The notes under the pieces are model-generated. The model ran no database searches. It was given only the letters and a program-made list of their open reading frames with translations, and was not told the origin of the DNA. Of a stretch of 32,000 bases of DNA, positions 1,227-32,000 are shown piece after piece. Both the position numbers and the translations under genes were made by a program. Position 1 is the stretch's first letter. Each line of letters starts with the position of its first letter. Source of the stretch: an uncultured Gammaproteobacteria bacterium (lineage in GTDB: Bacteria > Patescibacteriota > Microgenomatia > Daviesbacterales > UBA10151); NCBI GenBank assembly GCA_964360965.1, contig CAYHYM010000004.1:32796-64795 (forward strand), in the 5' to 3' direction.

Positions 1227-2102
1227 GTGATTACTAAATCAAAACAGGAATATATTAAAAATGCTATTTATCTTTCCTATACTTCTTTAAATGATTTTTT
1301 GAAGTGTCCCGGGAGCTATTATTTAAAAAACATCTACAGAGATCCCAAAACCGGCTTTAGGATGCAGATTGCCTCACCTTATCTTTCTTTAGGTTCAACA
1401 GTCCATGATGCTATAAAGTGGCATATAGAAATGGCAGGCCCGCTTCGACTCGCGTCGAGCGAGGCGAGACAGGTAACATATGAACAATTGGAGGGAAAAT
1501 TTAGAAATCTATGGCTAAAATATACCGGTAAAAGAGGGGGTTTCTCCACCAAAGAAGATGAAGCAAGTTTTGGTAAGCGCGGCCTGTTAATGTTGGAGAA
1601 TTTTTTTAGAAATGCCAAAAACTTGGAAGATAAACATCACAGTATAGAATTTCCTAAATACCCATTATTGGATAATGTAATTTTAATGGGGAATTTTGAC
1701 TTTATTGGGGAAAAAGAGGATCAGACCTTACATGTTGTGGATTTTAAAACCGGAGCAAATGATGAAAAAGATCCAATTCAGCTTTATATTTATGCCATTT
1801 TGGCAGAGGCTAATTTGGAAAAATCAGTTTCTTCAGCTTCATTTTGGTATTTGGACAGGGAAGATAAACCGCGTGATATAGTTTTAGATCCGCTGGAACC
1901 AAAACTGGAATGGTTAAAAGAAAAAGCCACAGAGTTAAAAAAGGCAATTGGGGAGGGAATGTGGGTTTGTCCTTCGACTCGCTCCGCTCGCTCAGGATTA
2001 TGTAGAGATTGTAGAGACTATCATGCCATTTTGGATGGAAAAGGTGAATTTCAATTTACTGATTATAGATACAAGAAAGATGTTTATTACCTTCCCAAAT
2101 AG
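1227..2102 (+). CDS. PD-(D/E)XK Cas4/RecB-family nuclease with Fe-S-type cysteines
   Basis: 291 aa with a GTG start. VVDFKTG (D-x-K) and QLYIYA (QxxxY) match PD-(D/E)XK/Cas4-RecB motifs. Cys27 plus a C-terminal C-x10-C-x2-C resemble Cas4/AddB 4Fe-4S ligands. Confidence 0.7.
   Translation: MITKSKQEYIKNAIYLSYTSLNDFLKCPGSYYLKNIYRDPKTGFRMQIASPYLSLGSTVHDAIKWHIEMAGPLRLASSEARQVTYEQLEGKFRNLWLKYTGKRGGFSTKEDEASFGKRGLLMLENFFRNAKNLEDKHHSIEFPKYPLLDNVILMGNFDFIGEKEDQTLHVVDFKTGANDEKDPIQLYIYAILAEANLEKSVSSASFWYLDREDKPRDIVLDPLEPKLEWLKEKATELKKAIGEGMWVCPSTRSARSGLCRDCRDYHAILDGKGEFQFTDYRYKKDVYYLPK
1433..1473 (+). repeat. GC-rich TTCGAC-type mini-element copy inside the nuclease ORF (encodes GPLRLASSEARQ)
   Basis: ggcaggcccgcTTCGACtcgcGTCGAGcgaggcgagacagg is a sharp GC island in an AT-rich gene. 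It contains the hairpin TTCGAC/GTCGAG at 1444-1459. Confidence 0.5.
1971..1996 (+). repeat. GC-rich CCTTCGAC...GCTCAGG mini-element copy inside the nuclease ORF (encodes PSTRSARSG)
   Basis: CCTTCGACtcgctccgctcGCTCAGG shares both ends with the copy at 18491-18518. It lies between the first and second C-terminal cysteines. Confidence 0.55.
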
Positions 2103-2123
2103 TGGCTAGACTTCATGAGTAGT

Positions 2124-2555
2124 TTAACCTGTTTTTTTAGAATCTGGGATTATGACTGAAATAACAGGTTTTTGATCTAACAATTCTACCACAAAAAGCC
2201 CATGCAAAAGAGTGGCTGTTTTAAGCACTTGCTCAAGAGGGACTCCTGTTTCTTTGGCAATTTGTTCAGCAGGTGCGCTCCAATGATGATCTTTTAAAGA
2301 GCGGGTAAAAGCTCCCAAGGGCTGGTTTTTGTAAGCTGCCATTCTGGTAAGAAAAGCCAGAGGTTCTGCCAGTTCACTAAATGGCTTGGGGGCACAAGGT
2401 GTATCAGGTATGGGTACTTTAGTTAGATCAACAGGAACTGTTAATTGCTCAACAAGCATCATTTCTACTGTAGATCTATTTTCCAAGCTTGTCAAAAAAG
2501 CTGTTTGGTTAAGGTGAACTAGCCTCAAAAAACGTGAATTAATACCGCAAAACAC
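2124..2555 (-). CDS. hypothetical protein (start uncertain: GTG 2555 or ATG 2462)
   Basis: 143-codon ORF with no recognised motif. The first ~30 codons overlap a terminator-like hairpin, so the internal ATG-ATG at 2462/2459 is an alternative start. Confidence 0.35.
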   Translation of the reverse strand: MFCGINSRFLRLVHLNQTAFLTSLENRSTVEMMLVEQLTVPVDLTKVPIPDTPCAPKPFSELAEPLAFLTRMAAYKNQPLGAFTRSLKDHHWSAPAEQIAKETGVPLEQVLKTATLLHGLFVVELLDQKPVISVIIPDSKKTG

Positions 2556-2567
2556 CTTAAATTCACG
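2527..2567 (-). terminator. terminator-like hairpin CGTGAATT/AATTCACG followed by T6 (minus strand)
   Basis: Minus strand: cGTGAATT (2567-2560), 19-nt loop, AATTCACg (2540-2533), then TTTTTT (2532-2527). It lies downstream of the serine hydrolase gene. A third copy, AAATTCAC (2593-2586), can pair alternatively with the middle arm. Confidence 0.35.
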
Positions 2568-2592
2568 CTAAATTGACAAAAGTAAGTGAATT

Positions 2593-3426
2593 TCAGCTAA
2601 GTTGATGGACCATGTCTTCTACCATTTCTCTAACTCTTGCTTGCTGAGGATAAGTTGAATCTTTATCTGAGACTGCTTTATCGCTTGTTAAAGCTACAAA
2701 GCTGTGTTCAATATATCTACGGTCTATAGATTGCAGATAACCTGCTTGATGGCAATAACTAAATCCATCTTGGGTAATATTACCATCTTTATGCCTAACA
2801 GTAACCTCTTGACCACTTGCTGTAGCAGTTTTTCTAGTAGGGATCCATCTTAAAAACTTTTGGCCCAGATAATTATCTCTAACTAAAAAGCCTTTCCTAA
2901 ACTCATATAAAAATTGGCCTACATTTTGAGCTGTTGTTTCATTTAGTGTGCCTGATTCAAGATTTAAGATAGTAGTATCATGAAGATGCCAATTGGATAA
3001 AACATCCTGTATTCTATTTCTACCTGCTACATCCGCTACCTTGGCAATTGCTACGTTATCAGAAAATTGAATAGAGTATCTTAGGAGATCTTCTAAAGTC
3101 TTTGTTGGCAGCATGTCCCTTCTAACAGCTTTGGACATAGCCCAGAGAGGAAGAAATTCTACTTTAAGTCTTCCAGTACCATGCATATTTTCCTGATACT
3201 CGTAAGGGGTAATATGATATCTTTGTTGTAAATCAAGCACCTCATCTTCTACTATTTTTAGAGCTACAGCCACTATAAAAAGTTTACCCAAAGAAGCAGC
3301 AGGTTGTTTCTCATGAGAATTGTATTCAGTAACTACTTGGTCAGTTTTTAAATTCTGTTGGAAGAAAGCAGTATGTAACTGACCATAAGTTTGTATACCA
3401 CTTGCTTCTTTAATTGAGCCTGTCAT
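2593..3426 (-). CDS. class A beta-lactamase-like serine hydrolase
   Basis: 277 aa. Contains S-x-x-K (ASLGK), an SDN motif (QFSDNVA), an E-x-x-LN-like omega-loop (LESGTLNE) and a KTG-like KDG. No signal peptide is obvious. Confidence 0.6.
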   Translation of the reverse strand: MTGSIKEASGIQTYGQLHTAFFQQNLKTDQVVTEYNSHEKQPAASLGKLFIVAVALKIVEDEVLDLQQRYHITPYEYQENMHGTGRLKVEFLPLWAMSKAVRRDMLPTKTLEDLLRYSIQFSDNVAIAKVADVAGRNRIQDVLSNWHLHDTTILNLESGTLNETTAQNVGQFLYEFRKGFLVRDNYLGQKFLRWIPTRKTATASGQEVTVRHKDGNITQDGFSYCHQAGYLQSIDRRYIEHSFVALTSDKAVSDKDSTYPQQARVREMVEDMVHQLS

Positions 3427-3438
3427 GGTTGGATTGTA

Positions 3439-3483
3439 TCATAAAAGTTTAACTTCTGCTAAATTGTTATATTTGTGGAAGCC
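3439..3483 (-). pseudogene. displaced thpR/ligT 3'-end remnant (copy A, 15 codons)
   Basis: The minus strand reads GGCTTCCACAAATATAACAATTTAGCAGAAGTTAAACTTTTATGA = GFHKYNNLAEVKLL*. Compare the intact gene end GFHKHNTLAEVKLV* at 9801-9845. It starts 8 nt after the PIN stop. Confidence 0.8.
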
Positions 3484-3491
3484 TACCTGTA

Positions 3492-3932
3492 TTATTCTCC
3501 GGCTAATTTAAAGCCCGGCTTAGGGTACCAATCATCAAAAGAAAATATCAAATTTGTTTCAAACTTATTGGCAGTTGCAGCCACAATTGCGTCAAAAATA
3601 GTATTTTGCTTAGATTGAGACCTTGTTTCAAAAATAATCGCTGCCTTAGTTTGAATTTCTAAGTTTACGTACTCCACAGTAAAAGCTCCTGCCAGATATT
3701 GTTTATTTATTAATTTTGCTTTATCAGGTAGGTTTTTAGCACGAGATAAGGCTGTAATTGTTTCCAGAATAGCAGTATTAGGATAAATTACTTGAAATCT
3801 TTTTAAGTTGAGCCACTGACTGATTCTCTTTGCTTTTTGGTGATTAGCATCTTGCTTATCTGCTAAAGCTATTAAGGAATCCGCATCTCCTATAATAATA
3901 TTGTTCACTTTTGTCTTTTCTCTCCACCCCAA
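3492..3932 (-). CDS. PIN-domain toxin (VapC-like)
   Basis: 146 aa. Acidic PIN signature residues occur in IIGDADSLIAL, AILETI, IFDAIVAA and SFDDWY. It overlaps the upstream RHH gene; an alternative GTG start at 3908 gives a GTGA stop/start overlap. Confidence 0.7.
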   Translation of the reverse strand: MGWREKTKVNNIIIGDADSLIALADKQDANHQKAKRISQWLNLKRFQVIYPNTAILETITALSRAKNLPDKAKLINKQYLAGAFTVEYVNLEIQTKAAIIFETRSQSKQNTIFDAIVAATANKFETNLIFSFDDWYPKPGFKLAGE

Positions 3933-4189
3933 GCGTAGTAGTCGTGATTTATAGATACATCCGTAGGAGAACCTTGTTGGCTGGGCATTTGTTCTGCCAT
4001 CTTAGCCAGATCAAGTAAAGCCTGGGCATTGGATTTAGGGTGATTAATCTCCAAGCCCTTACTCAGGGCCTCTCTTATAATTTCAGCTTCAGCCTTATTC
4101 TTATCTTGAGCTATTAAGCTAATTCTTCTTCTGGTATCATCCGGGATGTGAACACTGATTCTTTGCATATGTATTACATCATACATCAT
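3905..4189 (-). CDS. ribbon-helix-helix (CopG/VapB-like) antitoxin; probable true start ATG 4168
   Basis: MQRISVHIPDDTRRRISLIAQDKNKAEAEIIREAL is a typical RHH N-terminus. TTGACA (4206-4201), a 17-nt spacer and TATGAT (4183-4178) precede the ATG at 4168. Confidence 0.7.
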   Translation of the reverse strand: MMYDVIHMQRISVHIPDDTRRRISLIAQDKNKAEAEIIREALSKGLEINHPKSNAQALLDLAKMAEQMPSQQGSPTDVSINHDYYAWGGEKRQK

Positions 4190-4202
4190 ACAAACAGGTT
4201 TG

Positions 4203-4404
4203 TCAAGTGCCCAACTTAACTTCAGCTAAAGTGTTGTGTTTATGAAATCCATTAGAGGGGATCGACTCAAATAGCTTAATCGACGATATCCGTATTGGAT
4301 TAAAAGGCATGGCCATAAGTTTTTCCATTTCCACTTCTAATTTTTGATCTACTTTTAAATGGTTGTTGAGCTTGGAAATATTGAAATCTTCACTTTTGAT
4401 AAAG
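4203..4404 (-). pseudogene. 5'-truncated thpR/ligT paralogue remnant (copy B, about 65 codons, frame intact)
   Basis: Translates ..FIKSEDFNISKLNNHLKVDQKLEVEMEKLMAMPFNPIRISSIKLFESIPSNGFHKHNTLAEVKLGT*, collinear with the C-terminus of the gene at 9801-10367. Nt 4297-4375 are identical to 9892-9970 (79 nt). Confidence 0.85.
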
Positions 4405-4427
4405 ACTTAAAAAAGTTAAGGTAAAAA

Positions 4428-4512
4428 TTACCAGGCTATTTTAGAGGGGAAAGGTGAGTTTCAGTTTACAGACCACCGCTACAAAAAAGATATTTATTTC
4501 TTGAAACGTTAA
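4428..4512 (+). pseudogene. 3'-end remnant of a Cas4-like nuclease paralogue
   Basis: Translates NYQAILEGKGEFQFTDHRYKKDIYFLKR*. Compare DYHAILDGKGEFQFTDYRYKKDVYYLPK* at the end of the gene at 1227-2102. Differences are mostly synonymous or conservative. Confidence 0.8.
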
Positions 4513-6050
4513 TAAATAGGCTCGAGGTCTTTTTCTACAACTTTTTCTATTAAAGTTTGTCCAGGGAAGATATAAATAAGTCTGATTTTGCCTGAACCGA
4601 CCTTGTTCAGTTCGTCAATAATAGTTGTAACTTTACTTGACTTAATATCAGTAAAAGGTTTGGCGACGGAATGGTATCTGCTGATAAAACCTTCTAGTTC
4701 GGAAGCTGCCAGAATCACCACTACATTTTTATCCAGAAGTGTGGTCATTTCGCCTTTAAGCTTACCTTGTTCTCGTAATAGGTTTTCAATTACTTGATAA
4801 AATTGGTTAAAATCTTGGGTGTTTGATTTACAGTTAATAATAAACTGTTGGACCTTTTCTTGTGTCTCAGAATTTACTGCGATAGACCCCTCTAGGATGT
4901 GACCTTCAAAGGCTGAAGTACTACTGTTGTAGACAGAAGGTAACCCAAGGAGAATAGTATGTGCTACCTCAATTTGGTGTTCCGCAAGCTCTGCTAACAC
5001 GCTTCTTACTGCTTGTTTTGGGTCAATATAGTCAATTCCAGGTTCTTGTTCTAGTAATTTGCCAACGCCTCCGTGCATAGCGGTGGAGCTAAAAGTGATT
5101 ATTGGGGGTATTCTTCTCTCCCTAGGTAGTGCTTTCGCGCGAGCCATTAATTCAGGCATATGAGCTTTTAAACTTTGGCCATATAAATTAGTGTCAATTG
5201 AGCCTGATAGTTTTGGATCAGAGATCGGATAAATCTCAGGAAACGAGCGATCGCCAAAATAGTTCTTCCCCAAGGCTGTAATTAGAGAGTTCATCAGGGC
5301 TTCGGTGAAATGGGCAGTATCACGACCGCTATCTCCACCAACAACAATAATTGGTCTTCTAGCAATCACTCTTGTTTCTTCTGGTTTACTAATATCCGGA
5401 GTAATGGTTTGTATTGGTAGTCTTTGAATACCCTTCAGGTAGCGTCTAATATCAAATCCAACGTAAAATCTAGGGTCTCCTGAAGAAGAAAATACTGTAT
5501 CCTCATAAGGATAATCTGCTCCAGTAATTAGGTCACGATCAAAAAAATGCCTTATGGGAATATCAGTTTGGGTAAATGGGTTAACGGTGCCATACTCAAG
5601 ACCTAGCTTGGTCACATCAGCACGCTTTAGATCAGACTCACTAACATCTAAGTGCTGGGCCAATTTGGTAAAGTCTAGCTCTCGATCAGCTCTGGTATGA
5701 GTTATAACTAGGGGATAACCAGGAGCTGTTAGGGCATTAGATCTCATAATTCGCCATAGTTCTACTCCTTGCTCTCCCTCGAAAATCGCAGCCGCAGCAT
5801 TTTCTCTTACAGATCTGGGACGGCCTTGATTTTTACCAAAAAAATAATGAACTCCGTATTCAAAACGCAAAAGTGGCGGGACTGGAGTTTCTGTATATAT
5901 CTCATCTCTAATCTCTGCCGGGACATCAAAAATGGTCAGGCAAAGTGAATCAAAATGGCTGGCGATTTGAGCCAGTCTTTCCACCACAGGATCGCTTTCT
6001 TCAAGGCCAAGTTGCTTTGGGTTAAATCCAACCTGTAATAATTGTTCCAT
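4509..6050 (-). CDS. two-domain protein: YbaK/ProX-like deacylase domain fused to an Asp/Glu-racemase-like domain lacking the catalytic cysteines
   Basis: 513 aa. The N-terminal half has a YbaK-like pattern (LVITHTRADRELDFTKLAQHL...GLEYGTVNPF...). The C-terminal half has a racemase-like IIVVGGDSGRDTAHF, then FSSTAMH (versus CNTAH) and ILAASELEG (versus GCTEL). All assignments are by eye. Confidence 0.45.
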   Translation of the reverse strand: MEQLLQVGFNPKQLGLEESDPVVERLAQIASHFDSLCLTIFDVPAEIRDEIYTETPVPPLLRFEYGVHYFFGKNQGRPRSVRENAAAAIFEGEQGVELWRIMRSNALTAPGYPLVITHTRADRELDFTKLAQHLDVSESDLKRADVTKLGLEYGTVNPFTQTDIPIRHFFDRDLITGADYPYEDTVFSSSGDPRFYVGFDIRRYLKGIQRLPIQTITPDISKPEETRVIARRPIIVVGGDSGRDTAHFTEALMNSLITALGKNYFGDRSFPEIYPISDPKLSGSIDTNLYGQSLKAHMPELMARAKALPRERRIPPIITFSSTAMHGGVGKLLEQEPGIDYIDPKQAVRSVLAELAEHQIEVAHTILLGLPSVYNSSTSAFEGHILEGSIAVNSETQEKVQQFIINCKSNTQDFNQFYQVIENLLREQGKLKGEMTTLLDKNVVVILAASELEGFISRYHSVAKPFTDIKSSKVTTIIDELNKVGSGKIRLIYIFPGQTLIEKVVEKDLEPIY

Positions 6051-6148
6051 ATATCTATTATCTATGTGATAGAGCAGGTATTATACACTATAAGGCTTAT
6101 TATGTCAAAATGATTAAACTAAGGATTTTTGTGTTTTTAAAACACTTG

Positions 6149-6179
6149 TTGACATATTGTCATACAGATGTGTTATACT
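6149..6179 (+). promoter_or_regulatory. promoter (TTGACA, 19-nt spacer, TGtTATACT extended -10) with embedded palindrome TGACAtatTGTCA
   Basis: TTGACA 6149-6154, TG 6171-6172, TATACT 6174-6179. ATG 6186 lies only 6 nt after the -10 and there is no SD. The inverted repeat at 6150-6162 overlaps the -35. Confidence 0.5.
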
Positions 6180-6185
6180 TAAGTT

Positions 6186-7916
6186 ATGGCATTAAAAAGA
6201 ACTACCCTAAGGATAGATGAAGACTTAAAAAAAGATACTCAACAGCGAGCCTTAGAGGAGAATACCACTCAACAAGAAATTCTCAATAGAGCTTTAAAGA
6301 AATATTTAAGAACTGAGGTTCAGAAAGAGCTTGCTAGGGAAACAGTGGCCGAGCCACAGGAAGTAACTACAAAAAAGGCTAGTTCGAGTAAACCAGCAGA
6401 TGTAATTGATTTGATATTTAGCTCACTGGATATCGAAGCCAGGGGTTTTATTAAAAAGGGAGATTTGATAGATGCCCTTAATTTTAGAGGAATTCTAGAG
6501 GATGACATTAGGATTAAAAATGTCATGGAGGCTTTGAGTAAAACTAATAAAGACGATGATATCCCCCCCCAAACCTTCCGCAGGATTGTTGGGCCGTACA
6601 TTACATTAATTGAAAAAGCCCTGACTGGTAGTCTGGTTATCCCCGATTTTAAGAATTTCTGTAGTTTTATTACTAATCTTTATAATCGCACAATTCAAAA
6701 CAAAGATGGCGAGGTTTCAGATTACATACCTGAGCTAAAAGGAGTTGACCCAAATAACTATGCTATTTCCATTTGTACTATAGACGGACAGAGATTTAAT
6801 TTGGGAGATTACAATACTCCCTATCTAGCCCAATCTACTGCCAAACCCATAAATTATTGTCTGGCCTTAGAAGAGCACGGCGAAGAAGTAGTTCATAAAA
6901 AGATTGGCAGAGAACCTTTAGGCAAAGGTTTAAATCAGTTGACTCTAAACAGTCAAGGATTGCCGCATAATCCTTTAAATGGTACAGGAGCAATTATGTC
7001 GGCCTCCTTGATTGGCCAAGAACTTTCCCTGGAAGACCGTTTTGAACAGGCTTTAAAGAAATGGAAGTCGCTTTCCGGAGGAATTAATCCTGGATTTTCA
7101 AAATCAGCTTACGATTCAGCTAAACATGTTGCGGATAAAGATCTGGCGCTAGCTTATTTTATGAGATTGAATCAGTTGTTTTCCAAAGGATCAAATTTAG
7201 AAGAATATTTGGACTTTCTGTTTAAATGCTTATCTATTGAAACTACCACTGAAGCTCAAGCAATTATTGCTGCCACTTTGGCAAACGCCGGAGTTTGTCC
7301 GACCAATGGGGAAGCCGTGTTAAAAATGGAGACTACAAAGAATTGTTTATCTTTGATGTATTCCTGCGGTATGGAAGATTACTCGTCTGAGTTTGCTTTT
7401 GCAATAGGACTTCCTGCTAAAAGCGGTATTTCAGGATCGATTATGATAGTTGTGCCTAATGTGATGGGAATTGCGATTTATTCTCCTAGGGTTGATAGTA
7501 ATGGCAATAGTGTTAAAGGATTAGATTTATGTAATAAATTAATCCAGAGATTTAATTTTCATAATTACGATAGCTTAACTAAAAAACTGGATAAAATTGA
7601 TCCCAGGCTTTTGAAAAATGAAAATAAAATGAGGGGCGTGATGGCTGTTTGTACTGCTGCTTCTCAGGGAGATCTATATGAGATCCAAAGGTTAGAGGCC
7701 TCGGGGGTTGCTTTGGATGAAGGTGATTATGATGCCAGAACCGGCATACATCTGGCAGCCTCGGAAGGTCACGAAGAGGTAGTTCGCTATTTTATTGAAA
7801 GAAGAGTGGATATTAACCCTAAAGACCGTTGGGGTGGGACACCTTTAGCTGATGCCATGAGAGGTAACCACACTGCGGTAATTGAACTGTTGGAGAAAAA
7901 TGGAGCCAGGCTATGA
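6186..7916 (+). CDS. glsA: kidney-type (GLS-like) glutaminase with N-terminal RHH domain, EF-hand-like region and C-terminal ankyrin repeats
   Basis: 576 aa. The RHH is TLRIDEDLKKDTQQRALEENTTQQEILNRALKKYL. Glutaminase core motifs: YIPELK, CTIDGQR, QSTAKP (Ser-x-x-Lys), GLPAKSGISG, VVPNVMG, GNSVKG, NFHNYD. Three ANK repeats follow (DYDARTGIHLAASEGHEEVV..KDRWGGTPLADA). Confidence 0.85.
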   Translation: MALKRTTLRIDEDLKKDTQQRALEENTTQQEILNRALKKYLRTEVQKELARETVAEPQEVTTKKASSSKPADVIDLIFSSLDIEARGFIKKGDLIDALNFRGILEDDIRIKNVMEALSKTNKDDDIPPQTFRRIVGPYITLIEKALTGSLVIPDFKNFCSFITNLYNRTIQNKDGEVSDYIPELKGVDPNNYAISICTIDGQRFNLGDYNTPYLAQSTAKPINYCLALEEHGEEVVHKKIGREPLGKGLNQLTLNSQGLPHNPLNGTGAIMSASLIGQELSLEDRFEQALKKWKSLSGGINPGFSKSAYDSAKHVADKDLALAYFMRLNQLFSKGSNLEEYLDFLFKCLSIETTTEAQAIIAATLANAGVCPTNGEAVLKMETTKNCLSLMYSCGMEDYSSEFAFAIGLPAKSGISGSIMIVVPNVMGIAIYSPRVDSNGNSVKGLDLCNKLIQRFNFHNYDSLTKKLDKIDPRLLKNENKMRGVMAVCTAASQGDLYEIQRLEASGVALDEGDYDARTGIHLAASEGHEEVVRYFIERRVDINPKDRWGGTPLADAMRGNHTAVIELLEKNGARL

Positions 7917-8218
7917 AAAGTGATATTAAGACAACCGGAGTAATGGCGCTTGACTGGGCAGCGGCTCAGGGAGATTTGCACGAGATTCAAAGGTTAGTCG
8001 CATCCGGCGCAGATTTGAACGAAGGTGATTATGATGGGAGAACCGCAATACATCTGGCAGCCTCGGAAGGACAGGAAGAAATTGTCAGGTATTTAATTGC
8101 GAAAGGTGTAAATATTAATCCTAGGGATCGTTGGGGTGGGACACCTTTAGCTGATGCCATGAGAGGTAACCACACCAAAGTTATAGAGCTTTTGAAAAAA
8201 CATAATGCACAGAAATAA
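7913..8218 (+). CDS. stand-alone ankyrin-repeat protein, tandem duplicate of the glutaminase C-terminus
   Basis: 101 aa, collinear with residues ~480-576 of the preceding gene. Nt 8129-8175 are identical to 7827-7873. ATGA start/stop overlap at 7913-7916. Confidence 0.75.
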   Translation: MKSDIKTTGVMALDWAAAQGDLHEIQRLVASGADLNEGDYDGRTAIHLAASEGQEEIVRYLIAKGVNINPRDRWGGTPLADAMRGNHTKVIELLKKHNAQK

Positions 8219-8229
8219 TCTAATTTCCT

Positions 8230-9330
8230 ATGAATGATAAACAAATTTCTCCTCCCAATAAAATAAAAGTTTATGTATTAAACACAGGTGGAACTCTGGG
8301 AATGGTGGGTAAACCGCTTCGTCCCGCTAAATCAGCTGCAGAGCTTTTAGAGGGAATTAATACTCCGCCTGAAGTGGAACTTATCATAGATGATTTTAAG
8401 TTTAGGCAGGATTCTACTAATATTTTGCATGCTGAAAGGCTAATGATGGCTAGGCAAATAGCCGAAAATTATAAAACCCATGATGCTTTTGTCATTATGC
8501 ACGGGACTGATTCTATGGCAGAAACAGCTGCAGCTTTTTGTATGTTCTTTAAATTATCTTTACAAAAGCCTTTAATTTTAGTTGGTGCTCAGATGTCTAA
8601 AGATGAGCCTGGTTCAGATGTACAACTGCAGTTATCAAATACTTTTAGAGTTGCCAGCGCCTTTCATAGATATAATATTGTGGGTGTTTATAATGTTTGT
8701 ATCGGTGATATTTGGGATGGGTCAAGGCTTAGGAAAAGAGCAGAGTCAAATTTCATGGCTTTTTACACTCCAGGTCGTCATCCGGTGGCCAGAATTTGGC
8801 CTCATATTCACTTTGATGAAGGGTTAAGATATAAAGATCCTGTTTTGGCAGTTCAGGATTTAAAGATTGATGGTGTGCTAGAGCGTAAAGTAGCTACTTT
8901 TAAAGTATCAGCAGATACACCTCCATGGGTAGTAATGGATCAAGTTTTAAAAAATCGCCTCAAAGGGGTCATTTTAGAGTGTAAAGGTGCAGGAAATATT
9001 CCAAATCGTGAATGGGAAGATTATGAAAACGGGACAACTTATTCATGGATTGATGTAATTGCGGCAGCAACTAAAGCTGGAATCCATGTGGGGATTATTT
9101 CACCTTTTGAAGATGGCAGAGTTATCCTAGGTCGTTATGAGCTGGGAGCAGAAGCACTTGAGGCAGGGGCAATTAGCTTAGAAAGTCTGACTCCAGATAT
9201 GGCAGATATTAAGTTTAGACAGGCTATTGCTATGTTTCCTACAGATAGAGAAAAAATTCAAGAATTTATTTCAACTAATATTATTGGAGAATTACTTACC
9301 GGAGCAGAAGATTCTGAGGAATTCATTTAG
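8230..9330 (+). CDS. ansA: L-asparaginase, type I family
   Basis: 366 aa. Contains the VLNTGGTLGM (TGGT) and HGTDSMAETAAA (HGTDTM) asparaginase motifs. Confidence 0.75.
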   Translation: MNDKQISPPNKIKVYVLNTGGTLGMVGKPLRPAKSAAELLEGINTPPEVELIIDDFKFRQDSTNILHAERLMMARQIAENYKTHDAFVIMHGTDSMAETAAAFCMFFKLSLQKPLILVGAQMSKDEPGSDVQLQLSNTFRVASAFHRYNIVGVYNVCIGDIWDGSRLRKRAESNFMAFYTPGRHPVARIWPHIHFDEGLRYKDPVLAVQDLKIDGVLERKVATFKVSADTPPWVVMDQVLKNRLKGVILECKGAGNIPNREWEDYENGTTYSWIDVIAAATKAGIHVGIISPFEDGRVILGRYELGAEALEAGAISLESLTPDMADIKFRQAIAMFPTDREKIQEFISTNIIGELLTGAEDSEEFI

Positions 9331-9340
9331 AGTAAGTTTT

Positions 9341-9385
9341 TTACCCAAGTTTAACTTCAGCCAGAATGTTATGTTTATGGAAGCC
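9341..9385 (-). pseudogene. displaced thpR/ligT 3'-end remnant (copy C, 15 codons)
   Basis: The minus strand reads GGCTTCCATAAACATAACATTCTGGCTGAAGTTAAACTTGGGTAA = GFHKHNILAEVKLG*. It lies 13 nt downstream of the degenerate hicA stop. Confidence 0.8.
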
Positions 9386-9398
9386 ATTTTTGTAGAAA

Positions 9399-9518
9399 TC
9401 AAAGTAATTCTTTAAGTTCATCTATGGAAATTTCCACTGACTTTAAAATACTCATTAGAGTTTTTCTTTTGAGAGCTTTAATGACCTCCTTTGGCTTAAC
9501 AACTGGAATTTTGGGCAT
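9399..9518 (-). pseudogene. hicA: hicA toxin gene with 105-nt in-frame internal deletion (39 codons left)
   Basis: Translates MPKIPVVKPKEVIKALKRKTLMSILKSVEISIDELKELL*. The intact paralogue at 31043-31267 has MPKIPIVKPKEVIKALQRK[35 aa including GSH]...KRKTLMSILKSAEISIDELKKLL. Too short to appear in the ORF track. Confidence 0.85.
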
Positions 9519-9782
9519 TTAAGAAAGAGTTTGCTGGATGGGTATATCAATTGTTGTCATAAAGCTGGGACCTTTTTCTTCAGGAACTATTTCATTATGT
9601 TTTTTTAAACTGGCAATATATACGCTGATAGCATCTTTAACCATCTCCACAGCTTCTTCCAAACTGTTACCTTCTGTGACACATCCTGGCAGAGCAGGTA
9701 CAATCACCACATACCCACCTTCTTCAGCTGGTTCAAAAATAGCAGTATATTTTAAGATTTTTTGAGAGATTTTCTTAGCCAT
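9519..9782 (-). CDS. hicB: HicB-family antitoxin (copy 1)
   Basis: 87 aa. YTAIFEPAEEGGYVVIVPALPGCVTEGNSLEEAVEMVKDAI is the HicB/UPF0150 fold signature. TAA-ATG junction with hicA. Confidence 0.8.
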   Translation of the reverse strand: MAKKISQKILKYTAIFEPAEEGGYVVIVPALPGCVTEGNSLEEAVEMVKDAISVYIASLKKHNEIVPEEKGPSFMTTIDIPIQQTLS

Positions 9783-9800: not shown

Positions 9801-10367
9801 TCAAACTAACTTTACTTCAGCTAAAGTATTATGTTTGTGGAAACCTTCTTGGGGAACTGATTCAAACAGTTTAATGGAGGAAATTTTAATGGGATTAAAA
9901 GGCATGGCCATAAGTTTTTCCATTTCCACTTCTAATTTTTGATCTACTTTTAAATGGTTGTTGAGCTTGGCAATGGTGATATGAGGAATGAAACGACGTT
10001 CATCTGCTGTGAGCCTTAAAGTGGCCAAGCTATCTTTGATGCGCTCACGAATAAGTAAAATTTTATCTATATCCCCTTTGACTCCAATCCAAAGAACTTG
10101 AGGATGGTGGAGGTTTGGAAATCCATCAATATAGGCAGGGGTAACTTCAAATGCAGGAATATTCGCTACAGCATTTCTGATAATTTCAACTAATTTATCC
10201 TTTAATCCATCCGGTTGTTCTCCTAAAAAAGCTAAAGTCAGGTGAATTTTGTCTAAATCAGTAATTCTTACTTGAGTAATTAATGTATGCAATTTAGCTT
10301 GTATAGCTTGAAACTGCAATCTATTCTCTTTCGGAATTTCAAGTGCTATGAAAAACCTTATACCCAT
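9801..10367 (-). CDS. thpR: RNA 2',3'-cyclic phosphodiesterase / 2'-5' RNA ligase (2H phosphoesterase)
   Basis: 188 aa with two H-x-T-x motifs (HLTLAFLG and HITIAKL) at the expected spacing. Confidence 0.8.
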   Translation of the reverse strand: MGIRFFIALEIPKENRLQFQAIQAKLHTLITQVRITDLDKIHLTLAFLGEQPDGLKDKLVEIIRNAVANIPAFEVTPAYIDGFPNLHHPQVLWIGVKGDIDKILLIRERIKDSLATLRLTADERRFIPHITIAKLNNHLKVDQKLEVEMEKLMAMPFNPIKISSIKLFESVPQEGFHKHNTLAEVKLV

Positions 10368-30993: not shown

Positions 30994-31042
30994 TTAAACT
31001 CCTATTACTTCAAAGGTTGAGCCCACTGAATTTTTAGAAACC
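30994..31042 (-). pseudogene. displaced 3'-end remnant of the SbcC-like ATPase gene
   Basis: The minus strand translates (E)VSKNSVGSTFEVIGV*. Compare EVSKNATGSTFEVIGT* at the end of the partial gene at 31842-32000. It starts at the hicA stop codon. Confidence 0.75.
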
Positions 31043-31267
31043 TCAAAGTAATTTTTTAAGTTCATCAATAGAAATTTCAGCAGATTTTAAAATACTCATT
31101 AAAGTTTTTCTTTTGATAACTTTATTATGATAAGCAATAGTGGCTCTGAGAGTTTTATCAGAATTGTACATGACATAATGGCTTCCACTAATATGATCTA
31201 TTATAAAGTCCTTTCTTTGTAGAGCTTTGATAACCTCTTTTGGTTTAACAATCGGAATTTTTGGCAT
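31043..31267 (-). CDS. hicA: HicA-family toxin (copy 2, intact)
   Basis: 74 aa. KPKEVIKALQRKDFIIDHISGSHYVM contains the GSH motif. Confidence 0.8.
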   Translation of the reverse strand: MPKIPIVKPKEVIKALQRKDFIIDHISGSHYVMYNSDKTLRATIAYHNKVIKRKTLMSILKSAEISIDELKKLL

Positions 31268-31528
31268 TTAAGAAGGGGAGGAGATGGGTATATCTATGGT
31301 GGTCATAAAGCTGGGCCCTTTTTCTTCAGGGACAGGTTCATGATGTTTTTTCAAACTAGCAATATACCCAGTTATAGCATCTTTAACCATCTCTACAGCT
31401 TCTTCTAAACTGTCCCCCTCTGTGATACAACCTGGTAGGGCAGGAACATAGACTACATAGCCACCTTCTTCAGCTGGTTCAAAAATAGCAGTATATTTTA
31501 GAATTTTTTGAGAGATCTTCTTAGTCAT
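31268..31528 (-). CDS. hicB: HicB-family antitoxin (copy 2)
   Basis: 86 aa, roughly 85-90% identical by eye to the copy at 9519-9782. Confidence 0.8.
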   Translation of the reverse strand: MTKKISQKILKYTAIFEPAEEGGYVVYVPALPGCITEGDSLEEAVEMVKDAITGYIASLKKHHEPVPEEKGPSFMTTIDIPISSPS

Positions 31529-31606
31529 AGTTTAATTTTACTACTTTTTACTTTCAAAAACTAGATGCTTGACATCCAGAGAGAAAGAGAGTTAAATAAA
31601 GGTAAT

Positions 31607-31837
31607 ATGGAAGAAAAAAATGACGGTGAGCCTGGAAAAGTATGGGAGGGTTTTGATAGTTTAAGTGCTAGAGAAAAAGAAGGAGTAATTCAGGATCTAA
31701 AAAGCAGTTTTGAAGAAAAATTGGGTAATACAGATCCTAAAGTTAAAGAGATTCTTGTCGATAACTGGGAAAGCATGGTAAGAGTAGCAGCTGGTGTAGC
31801 CAAACCTCAGAAGAGTTTAGGTAATCAAGAGGAATAA
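31607..31837 (+). CDS. hypothetical acidic protein (tracked ORF 31565-31837; ATG 31607 preferred)
   Basis: TTGACA 31569-31574, a 17-nt spacer and TTAAAT 31592-31597 lie inside the tracked ORF, pointing to the start at 31607. Confidence 0.4.
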   Translation: MEEKNDGEPGKVWEGFDSLSAREKEGVIQDLKSSFEEKLGNTDPKVKEILVDNWESMVRVAAGVAKPQKSLGNQEE

Positions 31838-31841
31838 TATT

Positions 31842-32000
31842 TTAAGTTCCTATTACTTCAAAGGTGGAGCCAGTGGCATTTTTGGAAACTTCAATTCTGA
31901 CCGGAAATTCTTCCTTGAGTTCTTCTAAGTGAGTAATCACTAAAATCTTTTCAAAATCATCTTTGATTGAGTCTAAAACCTCAACAATCCTCCCTCTTCC
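31842..32000 (-). CDS. C-terminal end of an SMC/SbcC/Rad50-type ABC ATPase (partial, continues beyond window)
   Basis: ..GRIVEVLDSIKDDFEKILVITHLEELKEEFPVRIEVSKNATGSTFEVIGT* has an H-loop-like VITH followed by a typical SbcC-type tail. Confidence 0.5.
   Translation of the reverse strand, partial: GRGRIVEVLDSIKDDFEKILVITHLEELKEEFPVRIEVSKNATGSTFEVIGT

What the first reader, a model, noticed from the sequence alone, without database searches (positions are those of the whole stretch)
2030..4512. A 2.3-kb segment bracketed by two copies of the Cas4-like nuclease 3' end, nested with the thpR-type remnants
The nuclease gene ends DYHAILDGKGEFQFTDYRYKKDVYYLPK* at 2102. A second, 5'-truncated copy at 4428-4512 encodes NYQAILEGKGEFQFTDHRYKKDIYFLKR*, with most nucleotide changes synonymous (GCC/GCT, TTG/TTA, GGA/GGG, GAA/GAG, CAA/CAG, AGA/CGC). 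The enclosed segment carries an orphan gene, a beta-lactamase-like hydrolase and the RHH-PIN cassette, which is itself flanked by thpR remnants A and B. Remnant B (minus strand) and the nuclease remnant (plus strand) abut back-to-back at about 4404-4428, both truncated at their 5' ends. That is what nested insertion events would produce, each importing a foreign gene end.
Basis: partly seen in the sequence, partly recalled or inferred. Interest (0 to 1): 0.65.

Follow-up and report, generated by a model that had tools for sequence, protein, structure and literature searches.

The report
Gene-tail scars at an insertion hotspot
The duplicated nuclease gene end is real, and it is one of several leftover gene 'tails' that record repeated insertion and swapping of toxin-antitoxin and other small cassettes between two neighbouring core genes of an uncultivated groundwater bacterium: a clear record of genome shuffling, not a new kind of system.

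Summary
2011-2088 and 4421-4498 are a 78-nt direct repeat (76% identical), and 4426-4512 reads in frame as a 28-codon nuclease tail plus stop. The segment is not one inserted element.

In Ca. Daviesbacteria relatives, the nuclease (NUC, +) and thpR (-) are convergent neighbours. Their 3' ends touch or overlap in 'empty' genomes. In other genomes they are separated by 0.3-7.7 kb of variable cargo, mostly toxin-antitoxin (TA) cassettes.

The window holds two alternative fillings of this interval in tandem:
- A: orphan ORF, bla, RHH-PIN and a thpR 3' fragment.
- B: NUC remnant, p513, glutaminase, asparaginase, HicBA and thpR.

Remnant divergence is codon-structured (thpR-B vs thpR: omega 0.06). 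The remnants therefore diverged as working genes in other lineages.

The same 'gene tail | cassette | old tail' pattern recurs at least 10 times here and in relatives. No integrase was found.

Best reading: recombination between lineages, with homologous and microhomology-mediated joints, at a hotspot. It resembles 'insertion with long target duplication' of restriction-modification systems. The recurrent boundary at thpR codon -14 remains unexplained.

The parts
1227..2102 (+). NUC: PD-(D/E)XK nuclease with four invariant cysteines (Cas4-like fold; no cas context). A core gene of Ca. Daviesbacteria, convergent with thpR in relatives.
   Evidence: Pfam PDDEXK_1, E = 6e-20. C27, C248, C259 and C262 are invariant in 11 orthologues. 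Synteny.
2011..2102 (+). Working NUC tail; copy 1 of the direct repeat.
2124..2555 (-). Orphan ORF of 143 aa, part of filling A.
   Evidence: No Pfam hit; no tblastn hit in the 64 loci held.
2584..2607 (-). Probable third thpR-tail remnant (remD). It overlaps the stop of bla, and the last bla codons appear to come from it.
   Evidence: GCTGAAATTCAC matches 12/12, and 19/23 with flanks, to the thpR remnant of L019. Weak on its own.
2593..3426 (-). Class A beta-lactamase-like gene (bla). In relatives it lies directly downstream of thpR.
   Evidence: Pfam Beta-lactamase2. thpR, then 12 nt, then bla in L070, L071 and L072, and thpR followed by bla in L049.
3439..3483 (-). remA: the last 14 codons of a thpR (GFHKYNNLAEVKLL) plus stop, 12 nt upstream of the bla start. 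It is the displaced original tail and carries a promoter-like site for bla.
   Evidence: promoter-like site at 3462-3433
3492..4189 (-). RHH-PIN type II toxin-antitoxin cassette: RHH 3905-4189, PIN 3492-3932, overlapping by 28 nt.
   Evidence: Pfam RHH_1 and PIN. Own TTGACA-17-TATGAT promoter-like site at 4206-4178.
4203..4387 (-). thpR-B: the 3' 60-odd codons of a second thpR allele, 5'-truncated inside the HITIAK motif.
   Evidence: 84.7% identical to 9808-9982. 57 codons: pS 0.59, pN 0.066, omega 0.06.
4368..4424 (+). C-terminal remnant of the PIN gene of a lost AbrB-PIN cassette (ELGNIEIFTFDKDLKKLR*). 4368-4387 matches both thpR (16/20) and PIN (15/20), which marks a microhomology joint.
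   Evidence: Alignments to L009 11553-11610 and L002.
4419..4512 (+). NUC remnant: 28 codons plus stop; copy 2 of the repeat. Its stop overlaps the stop of the convergent gene p513, as in a native tail-to-tail gene pair.
4509..9330 (.). Filling B: p513 (YbaK-like, -), glutaminase-ankyrin (+), separate ankyrin ORF (+), asparaginase (+).
   Evidence: Pfam. Homologues of p513 lie next to asparaginases elsewhere.
9341..9398 (-). remC (14 thpR codons plus stop, 9341-9385) and 13 nt (9386-9398) that are a trace of the tail remnant of the gene at the window end, carried along with HicBA.
   Evidence: In L014, 1728-2049 aligns without gaps at 87% with 9064-9385 and continues into a full thpR.
9399..9782 (-). 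HicB (9519-9782) and HicA with an in-frame 35-codon deletion (9399-9518).
   Evidence: 83-86% identical to 31031-31528. Pfam HicB_lk_antitox.
9801..10367 (-). Intact thpR (2H phosphoesterase, LigT family).
   Evidence: Pfam LigT_PEase and 2_5_RNA_ligase2.
30994..31894 (-). Same pattern at another gene. Tail of the gene running off the window end (31842-31894), then an orphan ORF plus HicB-HicA, then a 17-codon remnant of that tail (30994-31046).
   Evidence: 53 nt, 81% identical; sequence read; Pfam HicA_toxin.

Best explanation
The segment is a compound recombination scar at a hotspot between two convergent core genes.

Shown:
- In relatives NUC(+) and thpR(-) lie tail to tail. In 'empty' genomes they touch or overlap by 8-44 nt. 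In others they are separated by interchangeable cargo, mostly TA cassettes.
- The window carries two alternative fillings in tandem: NUC> | orphan ORF, bla, remA, PIN, RHH, <thpR-B | PIN tail, NUC remnant> | p513 ... asparaginase, remC, HicA', HicB, <thpR.

Inferred order of events:
1. An AbrB-PIN cassette came to lie behind NUC together with a replacement NUC tail. The old 28-codon tail stayed next to its convergent neighbour p513.
2. In a related lineage with the arrangement NUC> <bla <thpR, an RHH-PIN cassette with a new thpR tail was placed at thpR codon -14, leaving the old tail (remA) in front of bla. The same happened with HicBA at the resident thpR (remC).
3. DNA of that related lineage, running from inside NUC to about 60 codons before the end of its thpR, was taken up and recombined. 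On one side there was a homologous crossover in NUC. On the other there was an illegitimate joint in about 20 nt of imperfect microhomology between thpR and PIN. This removed AbrB and most of PIN.

Mechanism proposed (inferred): DNA uptake plus host homologous recombination between diverged lineages. One arm lies in the gene body. The other arm is either a short tail homology, which carries an existing 'tail-cassette-old tail' unit into a naive allele and turns the recipient's own tail into a fresh remnant, or a microhomology, which founds a new joint. The addictive nature of TA cassettes would favour survivors that keep them. No dedicated recombinase is needed.
For: - Synteny and empty sites. 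NUC/thpR are convergent in about 35 loci. They abut or overlap in L001, L023/24, L032, L036, L045 and L052. The cargo is variable.
- Two haplotypes. thpR followed by bla is conserved in L049 and L070-72. The stretch asparaginase + remC is collinear with L014, where it runs into a full thpR, and the homology stops exactly at the remC boundary.
- PIN tail. The PIN-tail remnant and the same PIN|NUC-remnant joint occur in L009.
- Joint. 4368-4387 is similar to both parents, 16/20 and 15/20.
- Remnants diverged under coding constraint. thpR-B has omega 0.06 with differences 5/3/21 (p = 4e-5 against uniform; p = 0.004 against in-situ decay). NUC has 7/3/17. remA and remC differ from the tails mostly at third positions.
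- Foreign origin. The NUC remnant is not sister to the resident tail.
- Carried flank. The HicBA copy at thpR carries 13 nt of the other locus's remnant, so cassettes move with scraps of flank.
- Recurrence. The same pattern is seen in L003, L004 (twice), L006, L009, L016/19 and L046, with PIN, HicA, RelE-like and Gp49 cassettes.
- No mobility genes. There is no integrase or transposase in the window or in the tested cargo, and no tRNA, Rfam family or tandem array of CRISPR type.
- Composition. [quoted passage not shown]
- Literature. Patescibacteria carry competence and recombination genes (PMC12455944). TA islets are thought to spread by recombination at flanking core genes (PMC13617665).
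Against: - Six or seven thpR remnants behind five different cassettes, plus an unrelated 69-nt in-frame insertion in L043, all sit within a few nt of thpR codon -14. Microhomology joints should scatter. Homologous spread of one founding unit explains a shared joint only when the cassette is the same.
- The donor lineage of filling A was not found; the best bla relative is 73% identical.
- Which of the two fillings is the newcomer cannot be told.
- Competence and recombination are not shown for this organism.
- The event order is a parsimony argument, not a dated phylogeny.
Confidence: 0.6

Rival explanations
1. Site-specific integration. The gene tails act as attachment sites. Cassettes, or larger elements since eroded, integrate through a tyrosine-type recombinase supplied in trans. 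They bring a replacement tail, as elements that target the 3' ends of tRNA or protein genes do.
For: The thpR remnants share a sharp boundary at codon -14 in at least 5 genomes behind different cassettes. An unrelated small insertion sits at the same spot in L043. The target gene is always restored. VanW in L045 shows tandem copies with one boundary. A homologue of p513 lies next to a large serine recombinase in L073.
Against: There is no recombinase gene in the 32-kb window or in the cargo ORFs tested. At least six different target genes are involved, with repeat lengths from 27 to 303 nt and no shared motif. The repeat pairs have no long identical core: the longest exact run in the NUC pair is about 9 nt. 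Cassettes fit tightly with no element backbone left. The key joint at 4368-4387 is a microhomology joint between two unrelated genes. Serine recombinases do not make long duplications (own knowledge).
Confidence: 0.25
2. Local tandem duplication of the stretch from the NUC 3' part to the thpR 3' part within this genome, followed by divergence and cargo turnover.
For: The topology NUC | A | thpR fragment | NUC fragment | B | thpR is what a tandem duplication gives. thpR-B's nearest known relative is the resident thpR at 84.7%.
Against: Synonymous divergence is high (dS 1.15 for thpR; saturated for NUC), yet the truncated copies keep frame, stop codon and conservative changes (omega 0.06). A copy that had been dead that long would be unrecognisable. 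The two fillings share no genes. A PIN-tail remnant lies at the joint. The NUC remnant is closer to ten other genomes than to the resident tail.
Confidence: 0.05
3. Assembly chimera of two co-occurring strains that carry fillings A and B.
For: Coverage is low (about 4x), and related Daviesbacteria occur in the same well (L003/L021, L022).
Against: Three ENA assemblies (replicates R1, R2, R3) and three Logan contigs give the same sequence, and four of these contigs span the 4368-4424 joint. The microhomology at the joint is too short and too imperfect to cause a k-mer mis-join.
Confidence: 0.02

Closest known systems
Insertion with long target duplication of restriction-modification systems (Nobusato et al. 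2000; Furuta, Abe and Kobayashi 2010, PMC2853133)
   Same: Small addiction-type gene units without mobility genes are flanked by direct repeats of 30-420 bp of target sequence. The repeats often span the stop or start of the flanking gene, so the gene stays intact. Related genomes have empty sites. Most cases are in naturally competent bacteria, and the mechanism is unknown.
   Different: The cargo here is mostly type II toxin-antitoxin cassettes, not RM systems. The two repeat copies are 76-85% identical with codon-structured differences, whereas the published cases are near-identical. The scars are stacked several deep at one locus. The host is a Patescibacterium.
Integrative elements that target the 3' end of a tRNA or protein gene and carry a replacement end (tyrosine integrases; own knowledge)
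   Same: The gene is restored by an incoming tail and the displaced tail is left as a direct repeat. Tandem arrays of tail fragments occur.
   Different: There is no integrase, no element backbone and no identical core, and there are many different targets.
Recombination hotspots, 'minimal mobile elements' and TA islets exchanged by homologous recombination at flanking core genes (Neisseria MMEs, own knowledge; PMC13617665)
   Same: One interval between two conserved core genes holds different cassettes in different lineages. No mobility genes are present. TA modules dominate.
   Different: Plain flank-to-flank exchange leaves no gene-tail remnants. Here each layer leaves one.
Homology-facilitated illegitimate recombination during natural transformation (de Vries and Wackernagel 2002; own knowledge)
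   Same: There is one homologous anchor (NUC) and one microhomology joint (thpR-B | PIN tail), with replacement of recipient DNA.
   Different: This mechanism is known from laboratory transformation of Acinetobacter and Streptococcus. Here it is only inferred from the scar.
Integron cassette arrays
   Same: The array reads platform gene, cassette, repeat, cassette, repeat (thpR-B, RHH-PIN, remA, bla, remD). Packing is tight and TA cassettes are common.
   Different: There is no IntI or attI. The repeats are gene tails, not attC hairpins. A GTTRRRY core is present in only some copies.

Membership tests
Insertion with long target duplication (Furuta et al. 2010 criteria) | Direct repeats longer than 30 bp that flank the insert and derive from the target sequence | tested here: met
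   NUC 78-92 nt, thpR 42-45 nt, end-gene 53 nt.
Insertion with long target duplication (Furuta et al. 2010 criteria) | An empty site in a related genome that aligns with the repeat | tested here: met
   L014 has asparaginase directly against a full thpR. L070-72 have thpR directly before bla. L001, L023 and others have NUC against thpR.
Insertion with long target duplication (Furuta et al. 2010 criteria) | Insert under 20 kb with no mobility genes | tested here: met
   Pfam scans of the window and of cargo ORFs found no integrase or transposase.
Insertion with long target duplication (Furuta et al. 2010 criteria) | Insert contains restriction and modification genes | tested here: not met
   The cargo is RHH-PIN, HicBA, AbrB-PIN, bla and similar genes.
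Insertion with long target duplication (Furuta et al. 2010 criteria) | Upstream and downstream repeats nearly identical to each other and to the empty site | tested here: not met
   76-85% identity, with differences mostly at third codon positions. L003 is the exception: 36 of 39 nt identical by eye from the sequences.
Integrase-borne integrative element at a gene 3' end | Integrase gene within or next to the element | tested here: not met
   None in the 32-kb window or in the cargo of the 5 other loci whose ORFs were scanned for recombinases.
Integrase-borne integrative element at a gene 3' end | attL and attR share an identical core where crossover occurs | tested here: inconclusive
   The longest exact runs are about 8-9 nt in diverged repeats. 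This cannot exclude a short core.
Integrase-borne integrative element at a gene 3' end | Target gene restored by an element-borne end | tested here: met
   NUC, thpR and the end-gene are all intact upstream of the cassettes.
Integron | IntI integrase and attI; attC sites with paired R''/R' cores | tested here: not met
   No integrase was found. The repeats are coding tails without attC-like symmetry, and GTTRRRY is seen in only some copies (sequence read).
Insertion sequence / transposon | Transposase, terminal inverted repeats, short target duplication | tested here: not met
   No transposase. The repeat finder shows no terminal inverted repeats at the segment ends.
Type II toxin-antitoxin module (the RHH-PIN cassette) | Two small adjacent or overlapping genes, antitoxin first, with recognised antitoxin and toxin domains | tested here: met
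   RHH_1 (94 aa) overlaps PIN (146 aa) by 28 nt. Promoter-like site directly upstream.
Type II toxin-antitoxin module (the RHH-PIN cassette) | Toxin arrests growth and antitoxin neutralises it | not testable with these tools
   Needs a kill-rescue assay.
Cas4 | PD-(D/E)XK nuclease with a four-cysteine cluster | tested here: met
   PDDEXK_1. C27, C248, C259 and C262 are invariant.
Cas4 | Encoded in a cas operon next to a CRISPR array | tested here: not met
   No cas-related Pfam family among the about 30 window ORFs scanned. Tandem Repeats Finder, which can miss spacer-separated repeats, shows no array. In relatives the conserved neighbours are MazE-Doc and thpR.

The most novel reading that the evidence does not exclude
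Toxin-antitoxin cassettes in these Patescibacteria may travel as integrase-free 'homing' units. Each unit would carry a copy of the target gene's tail as a homology arm. Alternatively, an unrecognised site-specific process acts at fixed points such as thpR codon -14. In either case insertion always restores the host gene and leaves the old tail behind. The same nucleotide position being hit by five different cassettes and by an unrelated 69-nt element would then be the footprint of a targeting mechanism not yet described.
Probability: 0.2. Interest if true: 0.7.

Novelty: new variant of a known kind. Interest (0 to 1): 0.45.

Why it matters
How small addiction modules without mobility genes move has been open since 'insertion with long target duplication' was described for restriction-modification systems. 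This locus and its relatives give many natural replicates of the same kind of event for toxin-antitoxin cassettes. The layers are stacked and partly datable. Empty sites are available, at least one joint is resolved to a microhomology patch, and one boundary recurs. The locus also shows that streamlined, uncultivated Patescibacteria exchange DNA between fairly diverged lineages (dS about 1) at defined hotspots. Finally, working gene ends can be foreign while the native end survives as a scar, which matters for annotation and for phylogenies built from such genes.

Tried and rejected
- Exact-protein look-ups for bla, NUC, p513 and thpR gave only the same strain, or nothing for NUC. No strain-level empty or filled polymorphism was found.
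- A homologue search for bla did not find the donor lineage; the best hit is 73% identical. It did give the thpR-bla synteny.
- tRNA, Rfam and tandem-repeat scans found nothing, so a tRNA-type att site, a known RNA element or a CRISPR link are not supported.
- The terminator scan found no terminator in any remnant. The idea that remnants are kept as terminators of convergent genes is therefore unsupported. remA does hold a promoter-like site for bla.
- attC-like or dif-like readings of the thpR tail were rejected by eye. The core motifs are not conserved across copies and the arm spacing is wrong.
- A common target motif across the NUC, thpR, end-gene, VanW and AdoHcyase boundaries was not found.
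- The idea that the 14-codon boundary equals the NUC/thpR overlap was rejected. The overlaps are 8, 24 or 44 nt and involve other residues.
- The mosaic test along NUC and thpR (tail against body nearest neighbours) had too little resolution at 70-80% identity.
- Pfam on the 52-aa end of the gene at 31845-32000 gave nothing, so that gene is left unnamed.

Full report
OBSERVATION

The window is AT-rich (38% GC). The reported repeat is real.
- 2011-2088 and 4421-4498 are 76% identical over 78 nt (blastn E = 2e-8).
- 4426-4512 reads in frame as NYQAILEGKGEFQFTDHRYKKDIYFLKR*, against DYHAILDGKGEFQFTDYRYKKDVYYLPK* at the end of the 291-aa PD-(D/E)XK nuclease gene 1227-2102 (NUC).
- The enclosed genes are an orphan ORF, a Beta-lactamase2 protein, a PIN protein and an RHH protein.
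- The thpR remnants are real. The intact thpR is 9801-10367 on the minus strand. Remnant B (4203-4387) is 84.7% identical to its 3' part. Remnant A (3442-3483) is a 14-codon tail.

The same pattern, 'working gene tail | cassette | short 5'-truncated copy of that tail with its stop', occurs four times in this window:
1. NUC | 2103-4420 | NUC remnant.
2. thpR-B | RHH-PIN | remA.
3. Intact thpR | HicB plus a deleted HicA | remC (9344-9385).
4. The gene running off the window end | orphan ORF plus HicBA | 17-codon remnant (30994-31046).

The HicBA copy at thpR still carries 13 nt of the remnant from locus 4 after the HicA stop. Cassettes therefore move with scraps of their former flank.

RELATIVES

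Sixty-one loci with NUC homologues were fetched: 10 from genomes and 51 from metagenomes. Those carrying the conserved gene order described below are Ca. Daviesbacteria/Microgenomates.
- The conserved order is MazE-Doc(-), NUC(+), thpR(-) ... VanW(-), SBP(+).
- NUC and thpR are convergent. In L001, L023/24, L032, L036, L045 and L052 their 3' ends touch or overlap by 8-44 nt.
- Elsewhere they are separated by 0.3-7.7 kb of unrelated cargo (Pfam): AbrB-PIN, several RHH-PIN cassettes, HicBA, an RHH cassette with a RelE-like toxin, a membrane protein, asparaginases, bla and others.

This is a classic variable hotspot between two core genes.

RECONSTRUCTION OF THE WINDOW

- bla and remA. bla homologues (57-73% identity) lie 12 nt downstream of thpR in L070-L072, followed by a convergent asparaginase or NUC. 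L049 also has thpR followed by bla. In the window, remA sits 12 nt before bla. remA is therefore the original thpR tail, and RHH-PIN with a new tail was put in at codon -14.
- remC. L014 1728-2049 aligns without gaps at 87% with window 9064-9385, covering the asparaginase 3' end, the spacer and remC. In L014 this stretch runs on into a complete thpR, and the homology to the window stops exactly at the remC boundary. remC is therefore also an original in-situ tail.
- The joint. Between thpR-B and the NUC remnant lies ELGNIEIFTFDKDLKKLR* (4368-4424). This is the C-terminus of the PIN toxin of an AbrB-PIN cassette that is intact behind NUC in L009 and L002. L009 has the same PIN-stop|NUC-remnant joint.
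- Microhomology. 4368-4387 matches both thpR (16/20) and PIN (15/20), so thpR-B was joined to PIN in a patch of microhomology.
- Native junction. The stop of the NUC remnant overlaps the stop of the convergent gene p513, as at a native gene junction.

The window therefore holds two alternative fillings of the NUC-thpR interval in tandem. The 'bracketing' NUC copy belongs to an older AbrB-PIN event.

AGE AND ORIGIN OF THE COPIES

| Pair | Codons | Differences by codon position 1/2/3 | Other measures |
|---|---|---|---|
| thpR-B vs thpR | 57 | 5/3/21 | 20 synonymous, 9 non-synonymous; pS 0.59, pN 0.066, omega 0.06 |
| NUC tail vs NUC remnant | 28 | 7/3/17 | synonymous sites saturated |

- remA and remC differ from the working tails mostly at third positions.
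- For thpR-B the third-position excess rejects uniform decay (p = 4e-5). It also rejects a model in which a dead copy decays beside a live one (p = 0.004).
- Over a 75-nt block the NUC remnant differs from the resident tail at 19 sites. Ten orthologues are closer to it, at 15-18 differences.
- thpR-B's nearest known relative is the resident thpR, but at dS about 1.15.

The remnants were working gene ends in other lineages until recently. A simple local duplication followed by decay is rejected.

ARTEFACT CHECK

Three ENA assemblies (replicates R1-R3) and three Logan contigs from Hainich well H51 give the same sequence, and four of these contigs span the 4368-4424 joint.

GENERALITY

- Tail remnants flanking TA cassettes also occur in L003, L004 (at both NUC and thpR), L009, L016/19, L046 and L006 (AdoHcyase tail | Gp49-HTH cassette | 14 codons).
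- L045 has three VanW tails in a row.
- L019 keeps a 68-nt fossil of the ancestral NUC/thpR junction between renewed tails.

MECHANISM

- No integrase or transposase was found in the window or in the cargo ORFs tested.
- There is no tRNA, no Rfam family and no tandem array of CRISPR type.
- The insert has the same GC content as its flanks.

The best-supported account is recombination between lineages after DNA uptake. One arm is homologous in the gene body. The other arm is either the short tail homology or a microhomology.
- A tail-homology arm carries a 'tail-cassette-old tail' unit into a naive allele and turns the recipient's own tail into a fresh remnant. This explains the joint shared with L009 and the collinearity with L014.
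- A microhomology arm founds a new joint, as at 4368-4387.

Patescibacteria carry competence and recombination genes (PMC12455944). TA islets are thought to spread by recombination at flanking core genes (PMC13617665).

The closest described phenomenon is 'insertion with long target duplication' of restriction-modification systems. In that case the repeats are 30-420 bp, often span the stop or start of the neighbouring gene, occur mostly in competent species, and have no known mechanism (PMC2853133). The present case differs in its cargo (TA cassettes), in the diverged codon-structured repeats and in the stacking.

WHAT IS NOT EXPLAINED

Six or seven thpR remnants start within a few nt of GGCTTCCA (codon -14): window remA, remC and probably remD, plus L003, L004, L016/19 and L022. 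They lie behind five different cassettes. An unrelated 69-nt GC-rich in-frame insertion in L043/L010 sits at the same spot. The four codons upstream are not conserved, so each boundary is uncertain by up to about 16 nt. Even so, the coincidence is far beyond chance (about 3e-6). This keeps a site-specific process alive as a rival (0.25). It is also the basis of the novel reading.

VERDICT

The feature is real. It is a new variant of a known kind. Interest is moderate.

Noticed in passing
window 9399-9518 (-) vs 31043-31267 (-): The HicA toxin gene next to thpR has an in-frame deletion of 35 codons between short direct repeats, while its HicB antitoxin is intact. This looks like a toxin-dead, decaying copy of the HicBA cassette at 31043-31528 (83-86% identical).
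   Followed up: partly
window 7588-7916 and 7891-8218 (+): The last 101 codons of the glutaminase (ankyrin repeats) are repeated as a separate ORF that starts at the glutaminase stop (ATGA). The copies are 76% identical with omega 0.17 and dS 1.14, the same dS as thpR-B vs thpR. This is a tail duplication with no cargo, possibly from the same donor lineage.
   Followed up: partly
window 6186-6330 (+): The first 48 residues of the glutaminase resemble the putative antitoxin (no significant Pfam match) encoded upstream of the PIN toxin in L046 (54% identity). The gene may have captured the start of a former TA cassette.
   Followed up: no
window 1443-1457 and 1972-1986 (+): NUC has two GC-rich in-frame insertions (GPLRLASSEAR and PSTRSARS) that share CTTCGACTCGCkyCG. 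They are absent from all 10 aligned orthologues. L001 and L009 have other insertions at similar places.
   Followed up: partly
L043 13673-13741 (also L010): A 69-nt GC-rich in-frame insertion (PARIALPEAAASLQAGTQSVAGG) lies in thpR exactly between codon -15 and GGCTTCCAT. This is the same spot as the cassette|remnant boundary. The relative L040 lacks it.
   Followed up: partly
L045 14811-15025 (-): The VanW gene tail is followed by a perfect second copy of a 104-nt unit (tail plus 65 nt) and then by a third, diverged tail. These are three tails in a row with one boundary and no genes between them.
   Followed up: partly
L019 10835-10913: A 68-nt fossil of the ancestral NUC/thpR tail-to-tail junction (9 NUC codons plus 14 thpR codons) lies between a renewed NUC tail and a HicBA cassette. 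The NUC remnants of L004 and L009 contain a copy of this L019-type double tail, so fossils are inherited or transferred together.
   Followed up: partly
L073 323-9283: A 45%-identical homologue of p513 lies with two asparaginases, a ParA-like ATPase and a large serine recombinase. The p513/asparaginase module of filling B may be cargo of an integrative element elsewhere.
   Followed up: no
L003 9096-10004 and 11297-11353: The tail of the gene upstream of NUC has a 19-codon remnant downstream of NUC, so in that genome NUC itself lies between a gene tail and its remnant.
   Followed up: no
L014 881-1994: In this relative NUC is followed by an RHH-PIN pair and by only the last 80 codons of an asparaginase that is 95% identical to the window's, directly against thpR. 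This is another truncation joint in the same hotspot.
   Followed up: partly
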